The notes under the pieces are model-generated. The model worked only from the letters and a program-made list of their open reading frames with translations. It was not told the DNA's origin and did no database searches. From positions 690,001 to 722,000 of the forward strand of contig CP012986.1 of NCBI GenBank assembly GCA_001761425.1: a DNA stretch of 32,000 nt. Direction: 5' to 3'. Shown piece by piece: positions 1 through 26,309 of this stretch; position 1 is the first letter of the stretch, and each line of letters opens with the position of its first letter. This DNA is from Candidatus Saccharimonadota bacterium. Lineage in GTDB: Archaea; Nanohalarchaeota; Nanosalinia; Nanosalinales; Nanosalinaceae. A program made the translations under genes and the position numbers.

Positions 1-865
1 GTTCCTTTTTCAGTTCTTCTCTGTAGAATTCTTTTTCATCTTCATTCATCTCATCTAGATCTATAACTGACGCTACAAGCCTTGCGATTGTCTCGATCCT
101 GAAAAAGGCCTCCAGCTCCTCAAAGTTTTCCGGGAGATCTCTAACTTTTTGATAGCCTCTGTAAAATTCTTCTCTTACACTCCATTCCGCTGCAGGATCG
201 TGCATCCAGAAGCTGTTCGCTGACTTCACGAGATCCCTTACATCAAGGCCTGCGTACATGTAATCGAAGTCTATCACGCCTGAAATCTCTTTACCTCTGT
301 ATATGACGTTGTCTGGTGAGAAATCAAGATGACAGGGAACTGCTGTGAAGTTCTCTGGGAAAAGGCCTTCGTTCTTCCTAAGAAATTCTTCAACGCTGTC
401 AGCCACGCCGAAACCGTTTTCCCTGAGTACTGGAATCTTCTCATTGTACATATTGTCTATCTTTCTCCGTTTCAGGGAACCTTTCTCGAAGCTGTGTAGT
501 TGAAGGCCTTCCAGCAGTTCTTCCGGTGTTTGATCTTCTTTCTTCATCTCCATCCATCCTTCATGTGGGAAGGAGGCCTTGCTGTGGATCCTCGCGAGCG
601 TTTTACCTGCGTTCCTGGTTCTTTCCGGGTTTACGTTTTTCTCTGCGGATTCTCCCTGTACTTTTTCGACTGTTGTGAACTTTTGGCCGTTGACTTCCTG
701 GACTTCTCTGGTTACTGTTTCGGGGACAGGTACCGTGTCTTGGAAGAGTTCGTAGCATTTCAGGTTGTGCTTCAGGGAGTCATCTTCTCTACCTGAGAAC
801 TGGACTATGTATTTTTCTCCGTCTACGGTGACTGAGTAAGTTTCGTGCATAAGGCCTTCCTCCAT
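1..865 (-). CDS. APH/choline-kinase-type phosphotransferase (C-terminus cut by window edge)
   Basis: Not in the ORF track because it runs off the edge. Manual translation from ATG at 865: MEEGLMHETYSVTVDGEKYIVQF... Contains CHLDFSPDNVI (HxDxxxxN catalytic loop) and VIDFDYM (DFD metal-binding motif), then continues ...FYREELKKE to position 1. Confidence 0.75.
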   Translation of the reverse strand, partial: MEEGLMHETYSVTVDGEKYIVQFSGREDDSLKHNLKCYELFQDTVPVPETVTREVQEVNGQKFTTVEKVQGESAEKNVNPERTRNAGKTLARIHSKASFPHEGWMEMKKEDQTPEELLEGLQLHSFEKGSLKRRKIDNMYNEKIPVLRENGFGVADSVEEFLRKNEGLFPENFTAVPCHLDFSPDNVIYRGKEISGVIDFDYMYAGLDVRDLVKSANSFWMHDPAAEWSVREEFYRGYQKVRDLPENFEELEAFFRIETIARLVASVIDLDEMNEDEKEFYREELKKE

Positions 866-984
866 CTCGTTTATTTTTTCAGGTTTTCTTTTGAGAACTT
901 TTCTGGTTGCTTTCCTGATTTTTTCTTTCATGGGAGAGGATTTGTGTAAAAGCTGATTTAAACCTGATTTTAGTTATAGAGGTT

Positions 985-18516: not shown

Positions 18517-19404
18517 ATGATCTTTGAGGCCTGGTTCCTGGCAACAGCTCTAGCAGCCACGATATGGGCAGTTATAAGCATAGCAGCGAAAAAACTTATG
18601 GAGAAAAGCTCAGGCCTCACATACACTTACCTTTACTGCGTTATCGCACTGATCTTTTACACTCCGGCTTTTCTGTACTTTCTCACGACTGAGACAGTAG
18701 CTCTTACACCGATAGTCTTTCTGGCTTTCCTCGTCTCAGGCCTTGCGAATATACTTGCCTTCCTGTCCTACAACAGGTCGATTAAACTTGGAGAACTCTC
18801 CACTGTAATACCTTTCACCAAACTTAACCCTGTATTCACAGGAATCCTGGCAGCAATCTTCCTCGCCGAAACAATGACCGCAGTAAAAGCTGTAGGAATA
18901 ATACTGGTCACACTGGGAAGCTACGTCATCCTGAAAGACGATGAACACGACCTTCTCGACCCGGTAAGAAGATTCAAGGCCTCCGACGCACCAAAACTGG
19001 GAGCGATGTCAGCATTCATCTTCTCGATTGCAGCGATCGCCGACAGATTTGCAACCCAGACAATCTCACCCAAGATCTACACCTACCTCATCTATCTGTT
19101 CATGACAGCAGGCCTCACAGCCTATATCCTGATAAAGGAAAAACACGTATTCACAGAAGCCAGGGAAAAATTCCTGGAGGATAAAAAACTTTACGCCCTG
19201 ACAGGCCTGGGAGCAGCCCTCGCCTCATACCTGATCTTTTTCAGCTTTTCCAGAGCCGAGGCCTCAAAAGTCATACCTGTCCTCCAGATACAGGTATTCA
19301 TCTCCGTTCTTGCAGGAATAACACTGTTTAACGAGGAAAACGTCAAGGAGAAAATAGTCGGCTCCATCATCCTTGTAGCCGGAGTAATCATGACAGCAAT
19401 CTAA
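18517..19404 (+). CDS. EamA-like transporter (DMT superfamily)
   Basis: 295 aa with about 10 TM segments in two similar halves, and an N-terminus typical of EamA (ATIWAVISIAAKK). Its ATG directly abuts the rpl40e TAA (TAAATG). Confidence 0.7.
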   Translation: MIFEAWFLATALAATIWAVISIAAKKLMEKSSGLTYTYLYCVIALIFYTPAFLYFLTTETVALTPIVFLAFLVSGLANILAFLSYNRSIKLGELSTVIPFTKLNPVFTGILAAIFLAETMTAVKAVGIILVTLGSYVILKDDEHDLLDPVRRFKASDAPKLGAMSAFIFSIAAIADRFATQTISPKIYTYLIYLFMTAGLTAYILIKEKHVFTEAREKFLEDKKLYALTGLGAALASYLIFFSFSRAEASKVIPVLQIQVFISVLAGITLFNEENVKEKIVGSIILVAGVIMTAI

Positions 19405-19446
19405 ACCATTTAAAGAAATAACCATCCCACAAAGAAAATACACAAC

Positions 19447-19593
19447 GCCCCGTTAGCTCAGCTGGTAGAGCACGTCCTTGGTACGCCTGGTTACGCTCGT
19501 GCGGCACGCAAAGACCGGTTCCACCGGCCCCGCCTAAAGCAGAATCAGTTCACAAACAGGACGAGGTCCCGGGTTCAAATCTCGGACGGGGCT
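19447..19593 (+). tRNA. tRNA-Thr(GGU) interrupted by a 74-nt intron at the canonical 37/38 position
   Basis: Folded by hand. Acceptor GCCCCGT/ACGGGGC with discriminator T; D-arm GCTC-AGCTGGTA-GAGC; anticodon stem CGTCC/GGACG with loop TT-GGT-A|intron|A; variable AGGTC; T-arm CCGGG-TTCAAAT-CTCGG. No encoded CCA. Confidence 0.88.
19484..19557 (+). other. tRNA-Thr intron (74 nt, GC-rich, internal hairpin CCGG-TTCCA-CCGG)
   Basis: Boundaries are inferred from the cloverleaf. The central BHB helix can only be drawn with 3 of 4 pairs (T32-A, T33-A, G34-C, G35.A). Confidence 0.6.
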
Positions 19594-19676
19594 CTGAATC
19601 TTTTCCATTTTATGAGCTTTTGAGGCCTTGATGGTGCGAATGCTTATGTGAGAATGAGTTTGTATCTGGATTTTAT

Positions 19677-20618
19677 TCAGAGTTGGTTGAGTAGGGATTC
19701 TATTCTATTTGTTATTCTTTTTTCAGTGTCTTCTTTGTCACTGAAGATTACCAGTAGTCTGGTCATCTGAAGTAGTTCGTATAGTTTTTCCGTGATTTCG
19801 TCATAATTGATGTTTCTGCTTTCTCTGTAGCCTTTTCTGAAAGCTTTCTGATATTTTTCGTCTTCATTGAGCCAGAAAATTCTGATCTCGCTGATTACTA
19901 AATCCAAGAAGGGATCGCCAGCAGCTGCTGTCTCCCAGTCCAGGACAGCAATATCATTTTCCTGGAAGAGAGTATTCCTCAAGTCAAATTCCATGTGGAG
20001 CAGAGTTGAGTCCTTTCTTTCATCCAGTAAATCTGAATATTTATCGAAGCTTTTCTCTGCCTTAACCGCAGTTTCATCGTAGCCGTTTTCTCTTAGTCTT
20101 TTCATCCACCATTCCTGAAGACTCTTCACTCCTTCAGACCAGGTATTATCAGAGATACTAATACCGTTCTCAGGTTGTATCAAACCAGAACGATTGAATG
20201 AATGCGAGTTGTGTACGCCTCCAAGTGTTTTACCCATTCTACGGGAAAGAGTAATCTTTTCCTGTTCCTCCAGATTATGAAAGTTTCTTCCGCCAGAGTA
20301 TCTGTTCAGATTTTCTCCATCCAGGTATTCCATTATACGGAAATATCTTCCTTCTATCTCACCTTCACTAATTATTTCTGGAGTATGAACATCAGATTCC
20401 TCTAAAAGCTTGAGTATCTCTGTTTCCCTATACATCTCTTCCTGCCATCCCGAAGTCCAGTCCTCATTCTTCTCCAGCTTAACAACATACTTCTCATCTA
20501 TGATAAACGTGTGATTTGCATCCCCTACCGATGAAGAAACTAAATCTATATCGTTCTCATTTAGTCTCTGCTCCACCAGTTCCTGAACCAAGTTCGCTAC
20601 CTCACCTGAATCGGACAT
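19677..20618 (-). CDS. APH/choline-kinase-type phosphotransferase paralogue (catalytic loop HxE instead of HxD)
   Basis: LLHMEFDLRNTLF aligns to HxDxxxxN with Glu at the Asp position. VLDWETAAAGDPFLDL is the DWE/DFG-equivalent motif. The N-lobe has VVKLEK (Lys). Confidence 0.7.
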   Translation of the reverse strand: MSDSGEVANLVQELVEQRLNENDIDLVSSSVGDANHTFIIDEKYVVKLEKNEDWTSGWQEEMYRETEILKLLEESDVHTPEIISEGEIEGRYFRIMEYLDGENLNRYSGGRNFHNLEEQEKITLSRRMGKTLGGVHNSHSFNRSGLIQPENGISISDNTWSEGVKSLQEWWMKRLRENGYDETAVKAEKSFDKYSDLLDERKDSTLLHMEFDLRNTLFQENDIAVLDWETAAAGDPFLDLVISEIRIFWLNEDEKYQKAFRKGYRESRNINYDEITEKLYELLQMTRLLVIFSDKEDTEKRITNRIESLLNQL

Positions 20619-20689
20619 ACCGATAAATTATCAAGAGTAAATTAAAGGAACCTGTGAAATCCAACTCTAAATCAGTCAAAAAATCTTAT

Positions 20690-21409
20690 TCACTCCGGAT
20701 TTTTTCTGGTGTGGTTGGAATACGTTCCATATAGAGCGATCCACCCGGCGAGAAGAAGTAAACCTATCTGTAGAACCACTATCATCGAACCATCAAACAA
20801 ATCCAGCAGCTGAATAAGAGGGAAAACCGTCAGACTGTACATAAATGGTGCAAATGTCTTCCTGAAACCTTTGTTTCCTGTCAAAAATGCTGCTCCATGA
20901 GTCACTGTAGCTAAAGCAAAGATTGACGCCGAAATTCCGAGAGCAACTGAAATAAGATGTGCTATTAAACCTTCAAAAATTAGGAATTCTGCTCCTGCGA
21001 CCAGTAACACTGATTTCGAACCATACACAAAATCATAGTAAGAAATAGCCTGGGTCAGCAAAACACTTGACACACCTATCATCAGCCAGTTTTCAACTTT
21101 TCTTCTCTGGTCACCGTAAAACAGATACGGTTCTTTGACAAGCAGTTTTACGTTTTCAACTAAACCACCAGATTTCAACCTGTAAAGATACACCATACTT
21201 ACCGTAAACACTAAAATTCCGCCATAGAAAAGTAGTTCTCCCGTAATACAGACCGCATCGCTAGGCCCTGCAGCAATCATTCCTCCCGGAACCTCCCTTG
21301 CCACAGGATTTCTACACCTTAATCTTACTCCATGACCTAAACCTGTAAGAAAAATAGAAACCAGTACCGAAAATTTGGTGAAGGTCTGTCTCGAGATCAT
21401 ACCGGCCAC
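20690..21409 (-). CDS. polytopic membrane protein, unknown function
   Basis: 239 aa with about 6-7 TM segments, not acidic. Start is GTG at 21409 or ATG at 21400. TTTATAAAT lies about 30 nt upstream. Confidence 0.55.
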   Translation of the reverse strand: MAGMISRQTFTKFSVLVSIFLTGLGHGVRLRCRNPVAREVPGGMIAAGPSDAVCITGELLFYGGILVFTVSMVYLYRLKSGGLVENVKLLVKEPYLFYGDQRRKVENWLMIGVSSVLLTQAISYYDFVYGSKSVLLVAGAEFLIFEGLIAHLISVALGISASIFALATVTHGAAFLTGNKGFRKTFAPFMYSLTVFPLIQLLDLFDGSMIVVLQIGLLLLAGWIALYGTYSNHTRKNPE

Positions 21410-21531
21410 AGAAATAGATAGCTACCTCTGATTTATAAATTAAGCGCCAAGTAAGGCATCTACAATAATCAACTGATCCAGTAAGATTCTCTATCCGAAT
21501 TTTTTACAGAATCTATCGCATTAAACCCGAA

Positions 21532-21548
21532 AGGCCTTATAACGGAAA
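21532..21548. repeat. 17-bp inverted repeat, left copy (AGGCCTTATAACGGAAA)
   Basis: Exact reverse complement of 22819-22835. Contains a TTATAA TATA-like core plus one AGGCCT. Confidence 0.7.
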
Positions 21549-21591
21549 GTTTTTTGTAGAACGAGGCCTTGAATGGCGGTTTTCTCCAGGC

Positions 21592-22093
21592 TTAGTAGAT
21601 CGTGATGCTGAGGTCTTCTATGTTTTGGCCTGTTATGTCGCATTCTGCGGTAGTTTCTCCGTTTCTGTCCTGGACTATGTAGTGGATCTGTGTTAGTTCG
21701 TACTTGTTCAGTGTGGTGGCTATTTCGTCTTTTTCCATAGTCGTGTTGTTGTCGAGGATGTTGCCGTTTCCGTCGTAGACGTTGACTGTTTCAAGGCCTA
21801 GTGCTTCTGTGTTCGATTCTGCCTCCATTATCTGCTGGAGGTTGGTACAGACTGCTTTGAGTATTACTTTTCTGTCCTCGGTATTTGAGAAAAACTCTCT
21901 AGAGTTCTCAGGGGAAGATGTCTGAACACTGTATTCACCGGAGGCTGTCTACTGTGAAGACTGTGTTCTGATCGATGTCCTCTATCTTCAAAACTTCTGC
22001 ATCGTATGTAGAGGTGACGTCCTGTGAATCTCCTCCTGTACAGCCTGATGCAACTAAAGTCAGGGCGATGACAGTAAAGAAACTTTTTCTCAT
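21592..22093 (-). pseudogene. lipoprotein gene split by a +1 frameshift (or an assembly indel)
   Basis: ATG at 22093 gives MRKSFFTVIALTLVASGCTGG... (lipobox LVASGC) and stops at TGA 21935-21937 after 52 codons. The +1 frame is open from 21948 and runs straight into the 78-aa track ORF (21592-21828). The permitted shift window is only 21938-21948. Confidence 0.5.
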
Positions 22094-22180
22094 CCTGTAA
22101 AAAATTGATGTGTTCGATAGTTTTTAACATTTGGCAGTAGAGCTGTCGACTTCTCCAGCATCAGAGAGTTTAAGAAAAGT

Positions 22181-22675
22181 TCAGTGCTGTCCTGTCACAA
22201 GTTCTTCCATGTGTTCGTGAGTGTTCTGAAGTCTTGACTGTTCTCCGTTAAGCGTTCTTATAAGTTCTTCTATGGCTCCTTCCTTGTCCAGATCCTTGTT
22301 GGTCAGTCTTTCCTCCTCTGAGATCATCCTACTCATTTCCTCAAGTTCTGTCCTGATCTCGTGGATGACCTCCATAAACCTTTCCTCATCTTTCACGTAT
22401 TTTTTCTTGAAGGCCTTTCTGTTTATCTCTCCGCCTTCGTAGGCCTCCATGATTTTGTACATGTGCCGGTCTATCTTCTGGATCATCCTGACCTCCTGGT
22501 ACAGATCTTTCATGTCCTGGATGAACTCCCTGTCTTTCTCCATCTCCTCCAAATGCTCTTCATGAAGGTCCTCGACTTCGTGGATCGCATCGCCGAGTTC
22601 TTCAAGTTCCAGCTCTGTTTCCTCATCTATTTTCTCAAGATCGTTGACAGCCTGATGAAGGCGTTTCGAGTTCAT
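22181..22675 (-). CDS. acidic coiled-coil hypothetical protein
   Basis: 164 aa with ATG start, heptad-like and E/K/D-rich. Confidence 0.5.
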   Translation of the reverse strand: MNSKRLHQAVNDLEKIDEETELELEELGDAIHEVEDLHEEHLEEMEKDREFIQDMKDLYQEVRMIQKIDRHMYKIMEAYEGGEINRKAFKKKYVKDEERFMEVIHEIRTELEEMSRMISEEERLTNKDLDKEGAIEELIRTLNGEQSRLQNTHEHMEELVTGQH

Positions 22676-22818
22676 GGTACAGAAATAAGCGTTCTCCGTG
22701 TTTAAAACATGTCCAGAAAAACTCTGTCTACCTTTTCCAGACGGAGAAGGTTACGGCGATATCATCTTTTTTCTGGCTCAGTTTTGTTATAGTATGTCGA
22801 TACTGTTCGGACAACTAT

Positions 22819-22835
22819 TTTCCGTTATAAGGCCT
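22819..22835. promoter_or_regulatory. 17-bp inverted repeat, right copy (TTTCCGTTATAAGGCCT); candidate BRE/TATA element for the 22872 gene
   Basis: The TTATAA core at 22825-22830 lies about 45 nt upstream of the ATG at 22872. The related TTTCCGTTAT also lies about 40-45 nt upstream of the 16301 ATG (around 16254-16263). Confidence 0.35.
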
Positions 22836-22871
22836 GAATAAAATGGTTTTTGGCCATTCTAGTTTTTAGTT

Positions 22872-23153
22872 ATGACAGTAGATTACGACAAGTTAGTTAA
22901 TCTGGATTATACCGCATACGATCATTCCATGGATTTCAGGGAAGGACTTGAGAGAAACGGTATCAGGAACCCGGAAATATCTGTTGAAAAAAGCTATGAA
23001 GACGGTGTTCCTACCGTGGATGTGGAAGCTACTGACTCTTTTCTCGGAACTTCCTACAGCGAGAGTTACAGACTTGAAGGAGTTACTGAGGAAGAGTTCG
23101 AGGAGGTAATGTACGATGTCTGGGACTCTGCTTTCCAGGAACTGGAAATCTAA
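22872..23153 (+). CDS. small acidic hypothetical protein
   Basis: 93 aa with ATG start. It overlaps the convergent gene's end by 4 nt. Confidence 0.45.
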   Translation: MTVDYDKLVNLDYTAYDHSMDFREGLERNGIRNPEISVEKSYEDGVPTVDVEATDSFLGTSYSESYRLEGVTEEEFEEVMYDVWDSAFQELEI

Positions 23154-23449
23154 TCTAGTTCCTCTACAAAGCCCAGCAACTCCCTTATTTCTTCATTTGA
23201 TTCATAGGTGATGACCTCCGAGCTTTCATCATAGTCCACGACGCCGTTTACCTCCATCTTCGGCAGGTGAACATGACTCATCTCCAGCCGGAGCCGTTCC
23301 CTGTAATCCTCCATTTCCTCACCGCCTTCCCTGAGCGCATCAATCACTTCACTGTAGGTGAAAGAATCAGAATCAGATTTTTCCAGAGCATACAGCATAT
23401 CCCTCCTCTTCTCATCGGCCAAAAGCCGCAAAGTATCATCCAGGCTCAT
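23150..23449 (-). CDS. winged-helix (ArsR-like, haloarchaeal DUF7344-type) transcription regulator
   Basis: MSLDDTLRLLADEKRRDMLYAL...FTYSEVIDAL...EMSHVHLPKMEVNGVVDYDE matches the LL.d.rRR.vL..L / HvHLPKL...gvv.yD pattern recalled from halobacterial regulators. The track start at 23482 is TTG; the ATG at 23449 is preferred, with TATAAA about 25 nt upstream. Confidence 0.6.
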   Translation of the reverse strand: MSLDDTLRLLADEKRRDMLYALEKSDSDSFTYSEVIDALREGGEEMEDYRERLRLEMSHVHLPKMEVNGVVDYDESSEVITYESNEEIRELLGFVEELD

Positions 23450-23623
23450 AAAAACAATTTCTCCTGAAAACTGTTTATACAAAACTTCAGTCCAACAAAT
23501 CCACAGAGACAGTTCTAACCGGTTACATAATTTCCTCTGAAAATCTTAACTACGGTGGGAGAACAGGTCAAGGGCCTCCTCGGTTTTTCCAGGCCTTCTT
23601 TTCAAGTACAGAAGCTGTTTCAT

Positions 23624-23650
23624 TGGGAAATATGTTTCCCAGTGGGAAAA
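23624..23650. promoter_or_regulatory. candidate operator: TGGGAAA-tatg-TTTCCCA palindrome followed by a third TGGGAAA half-site
   Basis: Seen in the divergent spacer between the wHTH gene (23449, -) and the DUF1059-like gene (23703, +). It has 7-bp arms with a 4-nt centre, and a direct repeat of the half-site at 23643-23649. Confidence 0.3.
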
Positions 23651-23702
23651 TCGTTAATGGTTTATGAGGCCTAATTATTGGTTAGTAGGTGAGAATGGAA
23701 CG

Positions 23703-23861
23703 ATGCCAAAGTTTGTCTGCCCGGAATGCCAGATGGAGATCTCAGGAGATGAGGAAAACCAGTTGATAGGAGAGGCAGTAAAACACATGGAGGCCCAGCA
23801 CGAAAAGGAAAATTTCTCCGCCCAGTACGCCAAGGGCAATATTAGAGCACAGTCACAGTAA
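23703..23861 (+). CDS. DUF1059-like small metal-binding protein
   Basis: MPKFVCPECQMEISGDEENQLIGEAVKHMEAQH resembles the DUF1059 pattern (M.kF.C...G..C.f...g.teeE......HA...H). The track ORF starts at 23664, but the internal ATG at 23703 fits the family better. Confidence 0.5.
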   Translation: MPKFVCPECQMEISGDEENQLIGEAVKHMEAQHEKENFSAQYAKGNIRAQSQ

Positions 23862-23963
23862 AAACTAGCTTTCCAAGGCCTTTCTTATATTGACCCCTGG
23901 GATGAGGGTAACCTGTCGGTCAGTACCGGTGATTTAAGGTTTTATCCGGTAAAAAACTTTTTT

Positions 23964-24515
23964 ATGAAGGTTCTAAATATAGTTGGAACAGCCCGTGAAG
24001 GAAGAAAATCTGTACACGCTGCCCGTCAAGTAGATGAGGCCTTTGAGGAGAAAGGCCATGAGACAGAGGTCTTTGACCTGGCAGAAGAAGAGTTCCTTCC
24101 GCTCGGCAACCGGACATATGTTGAAGATGAGGAACCTGTTCCGGAGAGCGCTCAGAAACTTTCCAGGAAAGTGAGGGAATCCGATTTCATCGTGATCACG
24201 ACGCCAGAGTACAACCACAGTTTCCCGGGCATCCTGAAGACAGCACTTGATTACCTGTATACAGAGTACGAGGACAAGCCTTTCGGATTCGTAACAGTCT
24301 CTGCAGGAGGCTTCGGAGGAGTAAGAAGCCTGAGCCACCTCCACGACATCGTGCTCGAATTCGAAGGTTTCATAGGCCCTGATCTCCAGGTATCAAGAGT
24401 CGGAGACGTCTTCAACGAAGAAGGAGAACTCGTAGACGAGGCCTACAGCGACAGATTCCAGAGCTTTGTCGAACAGTCAGAAGAATTCAGAGAGAAACTG
24501 GAAAACGGCATATGA
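23964..24515 (+). CDS. NAD(P)H-dependent FMN reductase family oxidoreductase
   Basis: MKVLNIVGTAREGRKS..., DFIVITTPEYNHSFPGILKTALDYL and FGFVTVSAGGFGGVRS are classic FMN_red motifs. Confidence 0.85.
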   Translation: MKVLNIVGTAREGRKSVHAARQVDEAFEEKGHETEVFDLAEEEFLPLGNRTYVEDEEPVPESAQKLSRKVRESDFIVITTPEYNHSFPGILKTALDYLYTEYEDKPFGFVTVSAGGFGGVRSLSHLHDIVLEFEGFIGPDLQVSRVGDVFNEEGELVDEAYSDRFQSFVEQSEEFREKLENGI

Positions 24516-24583
24516 AGCCCAGTTTTTTCCTTCAAAATTTTTTCAGTTGAATCTTTTCGATAAGTATTTGTCGGATATTCCTG

Positions 24584-25045
24584 TTGATTGAAAAAGTTCT
24601 GAACCGCAGTTGGTCGGTGAACTTATACGGATGGGCCACGAATTCAGTGGTTGTGAGCACTTCGAAATCTTTGAGACATGATATCGCCCGTGCGAAAGAT
24701 CTCTATGAACGGGAGTTCAAGGCCTTGACCAGAAACTTCTACATTATGAGGTCTGCTCTCCGCTATTTCTCTGTTAAACAGGGGCTCTCATTCACTTCTT
24801 CAAAAGTGGCGGATAACTTTCCTGTCACTGTCTCTACCGCAGGCTCCTGCCTCAAAGTCATGGATGAGATCGGTGCCGTAGAATCCAGGAACTCCAGCAG
24901 AAAAAGGTTCATGCCCCAGAAATGCGACCTCGAAAAAATGGAGGAAGCGGGAGAGATCCTGAGAGCAAACTACGAAATAAGAGATTTCAGGCCTGAAGCT
25001 GATAAAAATCCGGAAAAAGTCAGACAGACAGAGAAGGAAAAATGA
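24584..25045 (+). CDS. hypothetical protein, possible winged-helix DNA-binding fold
   Basis: 153 aa with a TTG start in the track (start uncertain). FTSSKVADNFPVTVSTAGSCLKVMDEIGAVE looks HTH-like. It lies 10 nt upstream of the next gene. Confidence 0.4.
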   Translation: MIEKVLNRSWSVNLYGWATNSVVVSTSKSLRHDIARAKDLYEREFKALTRNFYIMRSALRYFSVKQGLSFTSSKVADNFPVTVSTAGSCLKVMDEIGAVESRNSSRKRFMPQKCDLEKMEEAGEILRANYEIRDFRPEADKNPEKVRQTEKEK

Positions 25046-25055
25046 GGCCTAGAAA

Positions 25056-26309
25056 ATGGGACTGAAAGACCTGCTTTCAAAGTATTTCCCGAAGAGAAAA
25101 GGGACTAGAAAAACCAGCTGGAGGGACGCAGAACAGTTCTTCAGAGATGAAAAAAGCAGGGAACTGGAGGAAGCCAGGGATAAGAAAAAAGAACACATCC
25201 AGAGAACAGGAGAGCTTGTTGAACAGCTTGGAGAAGCTCTCGAGGCCTTCCAGGACTATGACGACAGCAAAGACCTTCAGGTAGTCGAGGATGTAGCCCA
25301 GAACTTCTACAGATCCAGGAAAAGACTTGTGAAAAACTTCGAGGCCTCACAGAATATGGAGGAACACGTTGAAGAAATAAGGGAGTTTCTGGACGAGTTC
25401 AACGATGTCTCTAGAAAGGAAGGCGAAGTGATGAAATACGTCAAGGATGATTCAAAGGAGCTTTCTACAGCACTGGAGAACATCATCGGACACAGGGAGA
25501 GACTTGAGGCCTTTTCCGAGGGAGAATACATGGTTGTAAAACAGCTTGGTACTGTGGAAGAATTTGTCGAAGAGATACAGAGACTGGAGGAAGAGCTTGA
25601 AAACGCACAGAAAGAGCTTGAAGGCAAAGATACACGTGATATAGCAGAGGATATAGAAGATATAGAGGAGAAACTTGACGAGATAGAGAGATCCGAGGAC
25701 TGGAAACACAAAAAATCCCTGGAAAGGGAGAAAAAAGAACTGGAAAAGAAAAAAACGAGAAAAGAAAAAGAGATCAAATCAAAGATCTCGGAAATGCACA
25801 GAGGCCTGACAAAAATACTTTACAGCATAGAAAATGAAGGCCTCGAGTTCAAAAACCGTAAAAAAGTGCTTGAAAGGCTTGAAAGCCGTCAGATAGATTC
25901 TCTGGATGATCCATTACCTGAGGCAAAAGAAGCTTTAGAAAAACTAGAGGAAGAAGAAATCCTTGAAGGCAGAGACCTCCAGAAATTCCGTGAAGGCGTC
26001 AAAGGCCTTGAAAATTTTGAAGAGCTGAAAGATGAAGTCACAGAGTTTGAAAATCAGATAGAAGATGTCGAGGACGGTCTTGAAGGCCTTGAGATCGGGG
26101 AGAAAAAAGATGAACTTAGACAGAGAAAGAAGAGGCTTGAAGACGACCTTGAGGAGAAGAAAGATGAGGTAAGAAGTCTTGAGGAGACCCGGAACGAGAA
26201 AGAGCTTGAATTTGACCGTAGGATCAGAGAGCTTCAGCACTTCCTGAACTCTGTGATGAGGGGGACAGTAATTGTAGAAGAAGCCGGTGAAAAAGGTGAG
26301 GAAAAATGA
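25056..26309 (+). CDS. long E/K-rich coiled-coil protein
   Basis: 417 aa with ATG start and near-continuous heptad-like charged repeats. No enzymatic motif. Confidence 0.6.
   Translation: MGLKDLLSKYFPKRKGTRKTSWRDAEQFFRDEKSRELEEARDKKKEHIQRTGELVEQLGEALEAFQDYDDSKDLQVVEDVAQNFYRSRKRLVKNFEASQNMEEHVEEIREFLDEFNDVSRKEGEVMKYVKDDSKELSTALENIIGHRERLEAFSEGEYMVVKQLGTVEEFVEEIQRLEEELENAQKELEGKDTRDIAEDIEDIEEKLDEIERSEDWKHKKSLEREKKELEKKKTRKEKEIKSKISEMHRGLTKILYSIENEGLEFKNRKKVLERLESRQIDSLDDPLPEAKEALEKLEEEEILEGRDLQKFREGVKGLENFEELKDEVTEFENQIEDVEDGLEGLEIGEKKDELRQRKKRLEDDLEEKKDEVRSLEETRNEKELEFDRRIRELQHFLNSVMRGTVIVEEAGEKGEEK

What the first reader, a model, noticed from the sequence alone, without database searches (positions are those of the whole stretch)
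19629..23590. Motif-poor, lower-GC stretch immediately downstream of tRNA-Thr: candidate horizontally acquired islet
The genome-wide AGGCCT signature collapses right after the tRNA. There are no copies between 19629 and 21531 (1.9 kb).

Only six copies lie between 19629 and 23590, at 21532, 21564, 21794, 22411, 22441 and 22830. That is about one per 660 bp, against about one per 190 bp in the remaining 28 kb, where roughly 20 would be expected.

Sampled 60-nt lines here are AT-richer than elsewhere (32-47% GC against up to about 57%).

The stretch carries accessory-looking cargo:
- a second APH-type kinase with an atypical HxE catalytic loop
- a non-acidic polytopic membrane protein
- a frameshifted lipoprotein gene
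- an acidic coiled-coil protein
- a small acidic ORF
- a wHTH regulator

tRNA-adjacent placement plus deviant oligonucleotide signature is the classical mark of an integrated element. However, I saw no integrase and no direct repeat of the tRNA 3' end.
Basis: partly seen in the sequence, partly recalled or inferred. Interest (0 to 1): 0.6.

Follow-up and report, generated by a model that had tools for sequence, protein, structure and literature searches.

The report
Foreign two-gene cassette beside tRNA-Thr
In this tiny salt-loving archaeon, only the first 1.9 kb after a tRNA-Thr gene (a kinase gene and an orphan membrane-protein gene) is imported DNA that still lacks the host's hyper-abundant AGGCCT word; the rest of the flagged stretch is older resident accessory DNA, so this is a tidy but fairly ordinary case of gene acquisition.

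Summary
**Observation confirmed.** The six AGGCCT positions, the 1,909-bp gap, the lower GC (42.2%) and the intron-bearing tRNA-Thr(GGU) are all real. The stretch lies in the lowest 2.5-3% of genome windows.

**Interpretation partly supported.** The stretch is a mosaic, not one islet.

- **Foreign part (about 19594-21537).**
  - It holds an APH-fold kinase and an orphan membrane protein.
  - None of its 6 protein-permissive AGGCCT sites is filled, against 73.8% genome-wide.
  - GC is 40%.
  - It is 84% identical in DNA to a metagenome contig from a genus-distant, AGGCCT-poor nanohaloarchaeon, and it sits at the same EamA-tRNA-Thr site there.
  - That contig's flanking EamA is only 41% identical in protein and saturated at synonymous sites.
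  - The cassette is low-GC in both hosts.
  - A 60-64% identical kinase sits beside a tyrosine integrase near a tRNA in another genus.
- **Resident part (21.5-23.6 kb).** AGGCCT filling is native-like (4 of 6). It carries genes specific to the AGGCCT-rich clade and is syntenic in the same-genus genome G001.
- **Age.** The whole layout recurs at 90-93% identity in the sister MAG SW_7_46_7, so the acquisition predates that split.
- **Mechanism.** No integrase and no att repeat are present. I infer a decayed tRNA-targeting integrative element.

The scan had already described the AGGCCT palindrome on this genome. Here it serves as a marker of transfer.

The parts
18517..19404 (+). EamA-family transporter gene. 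It is the native left flank.
   Evidence: All 7 protein-permissive AGGCCT sites are filled. The EamA-tRNA-Thr adjacency is conserved in G011, G010 and contig L041. Against L041 it is only 41% identical in protein, with synonymous sites saturated (pS 0.74).
19447..19593 (+). tRNA-Thr(GGU). By my reading of the sequence: 5' exon 19447-19483, 74-nt intron 19484-19557, 3' exon 19558-19593. High similarity to L041 starts here.
   Evidence: Rfam tRNA hit, 49.4 bits; sequence read. The intron is shared only with L041 (129 of 146 nt over the whole gene). The G003 orthologue has no intron, and other genera carry unrelated introns.
19594..21537 (-). Horizontally acquired two-gene cassette: AGGCCT-free apart from the copy at 19623, which L041 also carries, and the boundary copy at 21532; GC 40%.
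   Evidence: 84% DNA identity over 2,115 nt to L041, which is a contig from an AGGCCT-poor host. Identity drops to about 50-55% left of the tRNA. It ends at the AGGCCT at 21532-21537, which reads AGGTCT in L041. None of 6 permissive sites is filled. It lies in the 1.4-1.7th percentile for GC and motif count.
19677..20618 (-). APH/choline-kinase-fold kinase, 313 aa. Glu replaces the catalytic-loop Asp (LLHMEFDLRN).
   Evidence: PF01636, E 4.8e-22. H208-M-E210...N215 is invariant in 11 homologues and aligns with the HND loop of the aminoglycoside phosphotransferase chain 3uzr_A. omega is 0.15-0.23. The closest homologues (60-77%) are all on AGGCCT-free contigs. The G001 copy is only 36-37% identical.
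20690..21400 (-). Orphan polytopic membrane protein, 236 aa from the ATG at 21400. It is non-acidic, with about 5 hydrophobic segments.
   Evidence: Only 4 relatives turned up in the two large protein libraries searched (5.8 billion clusters and 1.84 billion representatives), and no match with E below 1e-3 in 60 relatives. It has no Pfam or NCBIfam family. omega against L041 is 0.29. Hydropathy.
21432..21439 (-). TATA-like box TTTATAAA, 32-39 nt upstream of the membrane-gene ATG. It is the likely promoter of the cassette itself.
   Evidence: Conserved between the window and L041, within a block that is otherwise 61-74% identical.
21532..21548 (.). Left arm of a perfect 17-nt inverted repeat (AGGCCTTATAACGGAAA). 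It sits exactly at the right end of the cassette.
   Evidence: Each arm is unique in the genome, and only 5 perfect inverted repeats of 17 nt or more within 3 kb exist genome-wide. Both arms are perfectly conserved in SW_7_46_7. The non-AGGCCT part of this arm is absent from L041.
21592..22093 (-). Lipoprotein gene broken by a frameshift (52-aa and 78-aa pieces). It is a decaying accessory gene.
   Evidence: Frames read. An intact 170-aa homologue in G011 spans both pieces. In SW_7_46_7 the gene carries a deletion of about 80-90 nt over the same spot. Not found in G001, G002 or G003.
22181..22675 (-). Acidic coiled-coil protein, 164 aa. It is specific to the AGGCCT-rich clade and is a resident gene.
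   Evidence: Orthologues occur only in G001 (50%), G003 (46%) and G035 (47%). Both permissive sites are filled. It is syntenic with the FMN reductase in G001.
22819..22835 (.). Right arm of the 17-nt inverted repeat (TTTCCGTTATAAGGCCT), 37 nt upstream of the small acidic ORF.
22872..23153 (+). Small acidic ORF, 93 aa, divergent from the coiled-coil gene.
   Evidence: Two copies (49-51% identity) lie next to the coiled-coil gene in G001. It looks frameshifted in SW_7_46_7.
23150..23482 (-). DUF7344 winged-helix protein, 110 aa. It is a patchily distributed accessory gene.
   Evidence: PF24035, E 2e-12. Among 60 relatives the best match is 30% (G006), and none was found in G001, G002 or G003. 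Present in SW_7_46_7.
23964..24515 (+). NADPH-dependent FMN reductase. It is a family-wide gene and the right-hand anchor of synteny.
   Evidence: PF03358, E 2e-35. One match in each of 17 of the 18 same-family genomes searched. It lies beside the orthologue of the 24584-25045 gene in G001 and G002.
19595..19608 (+). TGAATCTTTTCCAT. A 13-of-14 direct repeat of it lies at 24548-24561. It is a weak candidate for an old att scar.
   Evidence: The 11-mer core has only these two + strand copies in the genome. The blastn-short E-value was 0.13. It is absent from the G001 locus.

Best explanation
**What the stretch is.** It is a mosaic variable region downstream of tRNA-Thr(GGU) in a nanohaloarchaeon. 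The genome matches Candidatus Nanopetramus SG9 in size and GC.

**The foreign part.** Only the first roughly 1.95 kb (19594-21537) is foreign DNA.
- It is a two-gene cassette read leftward from its own TATA box.
- It encodes an orphan polytopic membrane protein, followed by an APH/choline-kinase-fold small-molecule kinase whose catalytic-loop Asp is replaced by Glu.
- It came from a low-GC nanohaloarchaeal gene pool that lacks the AGGCCT palindrome.
- It arrived after the genus diverged from G001 but before SG9 and SW_7_46_7 split.
- It has not yet acquired the host's AGGCCT signature.

**Inferred mechanism.** The cassette is the surviving cargo of a tRNA-targeting integrative element. Its integrase and distal att site have been lost.

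**The kinase.** Purifying selection indicates it is functional. Its substrate is unknown.

**The rest.** The lipoprotein pseudogene, the coiled-coil and acidic pair, and the DUF7344 regulator are older resident accessory DNA. This part is poor in AGGCCT mainly because its small acidic proteins offer few permissive sites.
For: **Shown: the host signature is missing.**
- None of 6 permissive AGGCCT sites is filled, against 3,770 of 5,106 (73.8%) genome-wide. By my own arithmetic, 0.262 to the sixth power gives P of about 3e-4.
- Only 23 of 561 ORFs of 700 bp or more have no motif. The kinase and membrane ORFs are two adjacent ones among them.
- The genome's two other APH paralogues of the same size carry 6 motifs each.
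- GC is 40.0%. GC3 is 0.37-0.42 against a genome mean of 0.50.

**Shown: discordant divergence.**
- Contig L041 has the order EamA, tRNA-Thr, kinase, membrane protein.
- DNA identity to the window is about 50-55% in EamA and the spacer. It jumps to about 88% from the tRNA onward.
- dS is 0.31 for the kinase and 0.62 for the membrane gene, but saturated for EamA.

**Shown: the cassette is foreign to both hosts.** In L041 it is 39-40% GC, against 48.6% for that contig's EamA.

**Shown: the kinase travels.**
- The closest homologues (60-77%) sit in different contexts on AGGCCT-free contigs.
- In G006 the order is tRNA-Gly, RDD protein, tyrosine integrase, kinase. That segment is 40.7% GC in a 52.9% GC flank.
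- The same-genus G001 copy is only 36-37% identical and carries AGGCCT at normal density.

**Shown: the marker is calibrated.**
- Other motif-free ORFs include Cas8b and Cas5 of the CRISPR locus, which the genome paper proposed as horizontally acquired.
- Another is a gene inside a 6.9-kb integrase element at tRNA-Thr(CGU). That element has a 13-nt att repeat and an empty site in G001.

**Shown: both junctions are independently assembled.** The left one is in L041. The right one is in SW_7_46_7.

**Shown: selection.** omega is 0.15-0.23 for the kinase.
Against: - No integrase or integrase fragment is present in the window.
- No direct repeat of the tRNA 3' end exists.
- No empty-site allele could be shown. 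G001's contigs break on both sides of the locus. G003 has different genes after its tRNA-Thr.
- The integrase-kinase adjacency is a single independent case, because L036 and G006 are the same organism.
- The direction of transfer rests on composition, not on a rooted tree. The kinase tree is weakly resolved.
- The membrane-kinase pairing is not kept in the more distant membrane homologue, so a functional link between the two genes is unproven.
- Tetranucleotide distance is not an outlier.
Confidence: 0.75

Rival explanations
1. The cassette entered by homologous recombination, not by an integrase. DNA from another nanohaloarchaeon that already had the cassette at this site recombined using the conserved tRNA-Thr as the left anchor. 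A short sequence match, perhaps the AGGCCT site at 21532, served as the right anchor.
For: Similarity to L041 starts inside or at the tRNA and includes its intron. The gene order EamA, tRNA, kinase, membrane protein is identical in L041. The right breakpoint coincides with an AGGCCT (AGGTCT in L041). There is no integrase and no att repeat.
Against: The cassette is compositionally foreign in L041 as well. L041's lineage is therefore not its original home, and two arrivals at the same tRNA fit site-specific integration better. A related kinase sits next to an integrase near a tRNA in G006. This genome has a working example of integrase-mediated insertion at another tRNA-Thr.
Confidence: 0.3
2. 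One reading: the whole 4-kb stretch, or the 4.95 kb up to 24548, is one integrated islet.
For: A 13-of-14 direct repeat, TGAATCTTTTC(C/G)AT, lies 2 nt after the tRNA and again just after the FMN reductase stop. Its 11-mer core has only these two + strand copies in the genome. In G003 the orthologue of the 24584-25045 gene lies 2.3 kb from tRNA-Thr, with different genes in between. The wHTH and lipoprotein genes are patchily distributed.
Against: To the right of 21.5 kb, permissive AGGCCT sites are filled 4 of 6. The coiled-coil gene is restricted to the AGGCCT-rich clade. Coiled-coil, acidic ORF and FMN reductase are syntenic in G001 with 7 motifs in 1.6 kb. The FMN reductase is a family-wide gene. 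Similarity to L041 stops at 21537. The repeat scored only E = 0.13 and is missing in G001.
Confidence: 0.08
3. The region is native and vertically inherited. It is motif-poor by chance, or because selection against the palindrome acts on highly expressed genes.
For: Gaps of 1.4-2.6 kb occur about 40 times in the genome. Tetranucleotide distance is unremarkable. In cyanobacteria, rDNA and ribosomal-protein genes also lack HIP1 (PMC3025956).
Against: The contrast in dS and identity with the flanking EamA. None of 6 permissive sites is filled. GC3 is low, at the 2nd to 6th percentile, which is the opposite of a highly-expressed-gene profile. The membrane protein is an orphan, with no convincing match in 60 relatives.
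Confidence: 0.03
4. The cassette is an assembly chimera in a metagenome-assembled genome.
For: The genome was assembled from a metagenome at about 20x coverage. Draft assemblies of relatives break around this locus.
Against: The right junction (membrane gene, inverted-repeat arm, lipoprotein gene) is reproduced at 88-98% identity in an independent NCBI assembly, SW_7_46_7. The left junction (tRNA, kinase) is reproduced in an ENA contig.
Confidence: 0.02

Closest known systems
tRNA-adjacent genomic islets and degraded integrative elements (tDNA islands); in this genome, the 6.9-kb integrase element at tRNA-Thr(CGU), G000:137650-144579
   Same: It abuts the 3' end of a tRNA gene. Its composition is deviant. 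It carries accessory cargo. The same segment occurs in a distant lineage at the same tRNA. A related gene lies beside a tyrosine integrase elsewhere.
   Different: It has no integrase, no att direct repeat and no demonstrable empty site. It holds only two genes. It is shared with a sister MAG, so it is fixed and not recent.
HIP1-scarcity criterion for recent xenologues in Synechococcus elongatus PCC 7942 (Delaye et al. 2011, PMC3025956)
   Same: Genes that lack the host's highly iterated palindrome and also show atypical codon composition and odd phylogenetic affinity are read as recently acquired.
   Different: The word here is AGGCCT in an archaeon, not GCGATCGC in a cyanobacterium. Here the criterion could be checked against a directly observed donor-like copy and against dS.
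Aminoglycoside phosphotransferase / choline-kinase-like kinases (Pfam PF01636; nearest solved chains 3uzr_A and 3ham_A, deposited as aminoglycoside phosphotransferases; the best NCBIfam hit is the APH(2'')-IIa model)
   Same: Pfam match above the cut-off over 220 of 239 profile positions. The Brenner-type loop H-x-[D/E]-x4-N is present, followed by a D-W-E motif.
   Different: Glu replaces the catalytic Asp in all 11 family members. Scores are far below every NCBIfam resistance-family cut-off (32 bits against 625). The substrate is unknown, and no claim of antibiotic resistance is warranted.

Membership tests
tRNA-targeting integrative element / genomic island | Insertion directly at or next to the 3' end of a tRNA gene | tested here: met
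   Foreign DNA starts at or within tRNA-Thr(GGU), 19447-19593.
tRNA-targeting integrative element / genomic island | Encodes a tyrosine or serine integrase, or a recognisable remnant | tested here: not met
   No PF00589 hit near the locus. No tblastn hit in the window at E of 1 or better with two nanohaloarchaeal integrases.
tRNA-targeting integrative element / genomic island | Direct repeat (att) of the tRNA 3' part at the far end | tested here: not met
   The local alignment score is below the shuffled null. No match of 9 nt or more to positions 19560-19593. The positive control at tRNA-Thr(CGU) did give a 13-nt repeat. The only candidate is a 13-of-14 repeat of the sequence just downstream of the tRNA, at 24548 (E 0.13).
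tRNA-targeting integrative element / genomic island | Absent from close relatives (empty site) | tested here: inconclusive
   The sister MAG SW_7_46_7 carries it. G001's contigs end on both sides of the locus. G003 has ADH and a 147-aa ORF there instead.
tRNA-targeting integrative element / genomic island | Composition and phylogeny discordant with the host | tested here: met
HIP-poor xenologue (criteria of Delaye et al. 2011) | Too few iterated palindromes for gene length, plus atypical codon composition, plus unusual phylogenetic affinity | tested here: met
   No motifs in 942 bp and in 720 bp, and none of 6 permissive sites filled. GC3 at the 2nd to 6th percentile. The nearest homologues are on AGGCCT-free contigs.
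APH / choline-kinase-like kinase (PF01636) | Pfam score above the gathering cut-off | tested here: met
   79.3 bits against a cut-off of 23.2.
APH / choline-kinase-like kinase (PF01636) | Catalytic loop H-x-D-x4-N with Asp as the base | tested here: not met
   The loop reads H208-M-E210-F-D-L-R-N215. The Glu is invariant in 11 homologues and aligns with the Asp of the HND loop of 3uzr_A.
Named aminoglycoside-resistance kinases (NCBIfam APH(2'')-IIa, APH(3')-II) | Score above the curated cut-off | tested here: not met
   32.1 bits against 625, and 15.7 bits against 360.

The most novel reading that the evidence does not exclude
The cassette could serve as a natural clock and probe for how the archaeal AGGCCT palindrome arises.

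- **Slow gain.** The cassette has been resident since before the SG9 / SW_7_46_7 split. Its kinase dS to the nearest outside copy is about 0.3. Even so, none of its 6 permissive sites is filled, and it has the same count of 5-of-6 near-matches as the copy in the palindrome-free host. Palindrome gain would therefore be slow, which is hard to square with a strong repair or conversion drive.
- **Junction at a palindrome.** The right junction of the cassette falls exactly on an AGGCCT (AGGTCT in the other host). That site forms one arm of a conserved 17-nt inverted repeat. This hints that AGGCCT sites serve as recombination or integration joints. A paper titled as describing plasmid recombination in a cyanobacterium is cited among the HIP1 literature in PMC4390886; I did not read it.
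Probability: 0.15. Interest if true: 0.6.

Novelty: new member of a known kind. Interest (0 to 1): 0.35.

Why it matters
- **Calibrated marker.** It shows that depletion of the lineage-specific AGGCCT palindrome is a usable marker of acquired DNA in nanohaloarchaea. Here it is calibrated against a dS contrast, a CRISPR-Cas locus that the genome paper proposed as horizontally acquired, and an integrase element with an empty site in a relative.
- **Gene flow.** It documents gene flow between genus-level-divergent members of these tiny symbiotic archaea at a tRNA hotspot.
- **Rate bound.** It gives a first rough bound on how slowly the palindrome accumulates in new DNA.
- **Cargo.** The cargo is a conserved HxE variant of the APH kinase fold under purifying selection, paired with a near-orphan membrane protein. 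It is a small, defined target for biochemistry.
- **Caveat.** As an event it is an ordinary gene acquisition.

Tried and rejected
**Searches that found nothing.**
- ARAGORN found no tRNA. Rfam was needed.
- A sensitive search for a repeat of the tRNA 3' end found nothing above the shuffled null.
- Integrase remnants: none.
- Scans of genome and viral contigs with the single kinase sequence found nothing. Profile scans added only distant (42-46%) soda-lake homologues and the G006 copy.
- No homology between the cassette's membrane protein and the membrane protein upstream of the kinase in L046.
- The 32-34% identical membrane homologue (P0015) has no kinase beside it.

**Leads rejected or downgraded.**
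- I first counted L036 and G006 as two integrase-kinase cases. Their N-termini are identical, so they are one organism.
- The 18-nt inverted repeat at 23178 / 25371 is explained by two genes encoding the same EEIRE peptide (and my reading of the translations), so I treat it as chance.
- The TGAATCTTTTC repeat is too weak to call an att site.
- The kinase tree is poorly resolved, so I used it only to show that the G000 and G001 copies are not sisters.

Full report
**1. The observation**

AGGCCT occurs 151 times in the window, against 8.3 expected from shuffles.

The window is G000:690001-722000 of a single 1,118,574-bp contig with 46.4% GC. These figures match the published Candidatus Nanopetramus SG9 genome (1.1 Mb, 46.4% GC, one contig; bioRxiv 10.1101/029934). 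Earlier notes of this scan give the same name.

Genome-wide figures:
- There are 4,489 copies, or 1 per 249 bp. The 1,909-bp gap is the 9th longest of 4,488.
- Windows the size of the flagged stretch hold 15.9 copies on average. Only 2.5% hold 6 or fewer, and 3.1% are as AT-rich (42.2% GC).
- The 4-kb grid found 15 comparably poor regions.
- Tetranucleotide distance is not an outlier.

The tRNA is real but carries an intron. ARAGORN finds nothing, whereas Rfam scores it at 49.4 bits at 19447-19593. The sequence reads as Thr(GGU) with a 74-nt intron after position 37.

The gene calls hold:
- APH family and DUF7344.
- HxE loop.
- Frameshifted lipoprotein gene.
- It is one of three APH genes above the Pfam cut-off in the genome; one of the others is at window 158-868.

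**2. The motif as a marker**

AGGCCT is lineage-specific. It is dense in the same-genus genomes G001 and G002 and in genus g2 (G003), at 2.5-3.9 per kb. It is nearly absent in the other genera sampled from the same family and order.

It occurs in all three codon phases and in spacers. Of 5,106 sites where the protein sequence would allow it, 3,770 (73.8%) carry it.

The marker is calibrated by other motif-free ORFs:
- Cas8b and Cas5 of the CRISPR-Cas locus at 804-808 kb. The genome paper had already proposed that locus as horizontally acquired.
- A Schlafen/AlbA-type gene inside a 6.9-kb element at G000:137650-144579. That element has an intact tyrosine integrase next to an intron-bearing tRNA-Thr(CGU) and a 13-nt repeat of the tRNA 3' end. 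G001 has an empty site there.

The same logic was used for HIP1 in Synechococcus elongatus. That work adds the caveat that highly expressed genes also lack the word (PMC3025956).

**3. The stretch is a mosaic**

| Segment | Permissive sites filled | Notes |
|---|---|---|
| Kinase (19677-20618) | 0 of 2 | Foreign cassette |
| Membrane protein (20690-21400) | 0 of 4 | Foreign cassette |
| Lipoprotein fragment | 1 of 2 | Right part |
| Coiled-coil gene | 2 of 2 | Right part |
| Small acidic ORF | 0 of 1 | Right part |
| wHTH (DUF7344) | no permissive sites | Right part |
| DUF1059 gene | 1 of 1 | Beyond the stretch |
| FMN reductase | 2 of 2 | Beyond the stretch |

For the kinase and membrane genes together, 0 of 6 gives a probability of about 3e-4 at 73.8% (my arithmetic). 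The genome's two other APH paralogues of the same length carry 6 copies each, with 6 of 8 and 6 of 6 sites filled.

To the right of 21531 the genes have few permissive sites, but those sites are filled at the native rate (4 of 6 when the FMN reductase is left out).

**4. Direct evidence of transfer**

The membrane protein is almost an orphan. One full-length homologue (70% identity) turned up among 5.8 billion protein clusters. The exhaustive search and the profile search added only one distant full-length relative and two short pieces, one of which is the SW_7_46_7 copy. No match with E below 1e-3 appears in 60 relatives.

The 70% homologue lies on ENA contig k119_84867 (locus L041, 2,973 bp). 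Its gene order is membrane protein, kinase (with frameshifts), tRNA-Thr, EamA. L041 aligns to window 19416-21518 at 83.7% identity over 2,115 nt.

The identity profile is stepped:

| Region | DNA identity to L041 |
|---|---|
| EamA and the spacer | about 50-55% |
| tRNA | about 88% |
| Kinase | 85-92% |
| Membrane gene | 72-84% |

Synonymous divergence is 0.31 for the kinase and 0.62 for the membrane gene, but saturated (pS 0.74) for the adjacent EamA. L041's EamA is 40-48% identical to the EamA of every genus compared. The contig has one AGGCCT in 3 kb. Its host is therefore a separate, palindrome-poor lineage.

The tRNA intron is shared only by SG9 and L041 (129 of 146 nt over the gene). Two compensatory pair changes occur in its hairpin. 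G003's orthologue has no intron, and other genera have unrelated introns.

On the right, similarity ends at the AGGCCT at 21532-21537, which reads AGGTCT in L041.

**5. Where the cassette came from**

- In L041 the cassette is also compositionally foreign: 39-40% GC, against 48.6% for its EamA.
- The kinase's closest homologues (77%, 70% and 60%) all lie on AGGCCT-free contigs in different contexts: beside enolase, beside an amidohydrolase, and beside an integrase.
- In G006 the order is intron-bearing tRNA-Gly(UCC), RDD protein, 444-aa tyrosine integrase, kinase. That segment is 40.7% GC next to 52.9% GC chromosome. L036 is the same organism, so this is one independent case.
- In a soda-lake contig a truncated homologue abuts tRNA-Arg.
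- The only homologue in the same genus (G001) is 36-37% identical and carries 3 AGGCCT. It lies between the 23S and 16S rRNA genes. In the tree it is not sister to the SG9 copy.
- L032, a 37% GC contig on which the kinase matches its surroundings in GC, is the best picture of a donor-type genome.

**6. The resident part and the age of the insertion**

- **G001 contig C25.** It is colinear with the window from 30560 back to the FMN reductase. It then carries two copies of the small acidic ORF and the coiled-coil gene, and there the contig ends. That segment has 7 AGGCCT in 1.6 kb.
- **Coiled-coil gene.** It has orthologues only in the AGGCCT-rich clade.
- **G003.** tRNA-Thr is followed by an alcohol dehydrogenase and a 147-aa ORF. 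The orthologue of the 24584-25045 gene comes next. The interval after this tRNA is therefore a variable spot.
- **SW_7_46_7.** An NCBI contig of this nanohaloarchaeon (PXPF01000014.1) is colinear with window 21102-24515 at 90-93% identity. It runs from the FMN reductase through DUF1059, DUF7344, the coiled-coil gene and the lipoprotein gene to the start of the membrane gene. Both arms of the 17-nt inverted repeat are perfect in it.

The cassette was thus in place before these two genomes split. The right junction is not an assembly artefact.

Gene decay is visible across the region:
- The lipoprotein gene is broken in both sister genomes.
- The acidic ORF is broken in SW_7_46_7.
- The kinase is broken in L041.

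**7. Mechanism**

*Shown:* the segment is foreign, it lies next to the tRNA, and it occupies the same site in two lineages for both of which it is foreign.

*Inferred:* integration by a tRNA-targeting element, followed by loss of the integrase and the far att site.

*Against this inference:* no integrase remnant, no att repeat and no empty site.

The main rival is recombination anchored on the tRNA. A 13-of-14 repeat, TGAATCTTTTC(C/G)AT, lies at 19595 and 24548. These are the only two + strand copies of its 11-mer core in the genome. It is at best a weak scar of an older event (E 0.13).

**8. Function**

- The kinase is under purifying selection (omega 0.15-0.23).
- It keeps H-x-E-x4-N and D-W-E in all 11 family members.
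- It is most like the aminoglycoside phosphotransferase chains 3uzr_A and 3ham_A among solved structures (E 1e-9), and its best NCBIfam hit is the APH(2'')-IIa model. It falls far below every curated resistance-family cut-off.
- I read it as an active small-molecule kinase of unknown substrate.
- The membrane partner has about five hydrophobic segments, no known family, and omega 0.29. Its pairing with the kinase is seen only in this cassette.

**9. Verdict**

This is a new member of a known kind: a small tRNA-adjacent acquired cassette.

Its added value is that it validates the archaeal AGGCCT palindrome as a marker of transfer. It also shows that the palindrome has not begun to accumulate in DNA resident since before a split of about 8-10% sequence divergence: there are no AGGCCT copies and six 5-of-6 near-matches in both SG9 and L041.

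Noticed in passing
G000:C1:137650-144720 (outside the window): A genuine 6.9-kb integrated element. It has an intact 407-aa tyrosine integrase next to an intron-bearing tRNA-Thr(CGU), and a 13-nt direct repeat of the tRNA 3' end at 137650-137662. It also carries a Schlafen/AlbA plus HATPase_c_4 gene. G001 contig C67 has the empty site.
   Followed up: partly
window 21532-21548 and 22819-22835: A perfect 17-nt inverted repeat with a TTATAA core. Each arm is unique in the genome, and both are perfectly conserved in the sister MAG SW_7_46_7 while the surrounding DNA differs by 2-12%. The left arm is exactly the right edge of the foreign cassette. The right arm lies 37 nt upstream of the small acidic ORF. 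Its function is unknown; it could be a shared promoter or operator, or a recombination joint.
   Followed up: partly
window 19484-19557; G000:144567-144720; L023:1440-1600; L026: Introns of several different nanohaloarchaeal tRNAs begin with a shared motif (GGTTACGCTCG.GC.G.ACGCAA). It appears in Thr-GGU, in Thr-CGU, and in a tRNA-like stretch of G002. The SG9 and L041 Thr-GGU introns differ by compensatory changes in a hairpin (CCGG/CCGG against CCAT/ATGG). G003's Thr-GGU has no intron.
   Followed up: partly
window 21532-21537 vs L041:~20-30: At the cassette boundary the host has AGGCCT where the palindrome-poor relative has AGGTCT. This is a one-transition difference at a transfer junction.
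   Followed up: no
L016 (G001:C58:1-7941): In G001 the 23S and 16S rRNA genes are separated by about 5.3 kb. That spacer carries at least five protein-coding ORFs, among them an MFS-like transporter and the divergent APH kinase.
   Followed up: no
L024:3563-7159 (G003:C1:~579.5-583.2 kb): G003 has an insertion between the orthologues of the 24584-25045 and 25056-26309 genes, which are adjacent in SG9. By my reading of the ORF translations it looks like a copper-resistance set: a P-type ATPase, a DUF305-like protein and a PadR-like regulator, followed by a 181-aa ORF.
   Followed up: no
window 19677-20618 and homologues P0002-P0012: A whole subfamily of nanohaloarchaeal APH-fold kinases has Glu in place of the catalytic-loop Asp (HMEFDLRN). 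It is invariant across sequences 41-78% identical to the window's kinase.
   Followed up: partly
L047:3442-4347: In a soda-lake contig, a C-terminally truncated kinase homologue overlaps the 5' end of tRNA-Arg(GCG). This is another tRNA adjacency for the gene family.
   Followed up: no
window 23178-23195 and 25371-25388: An 18-nt perfect inverted repeat. Both copies encode the peptide EEIRE in two acidic proteins, the DUF7344 protein and the 417-aa coiled-coil protein. I treat it as chance arising from biased acidic coding.
   Followed up: partly
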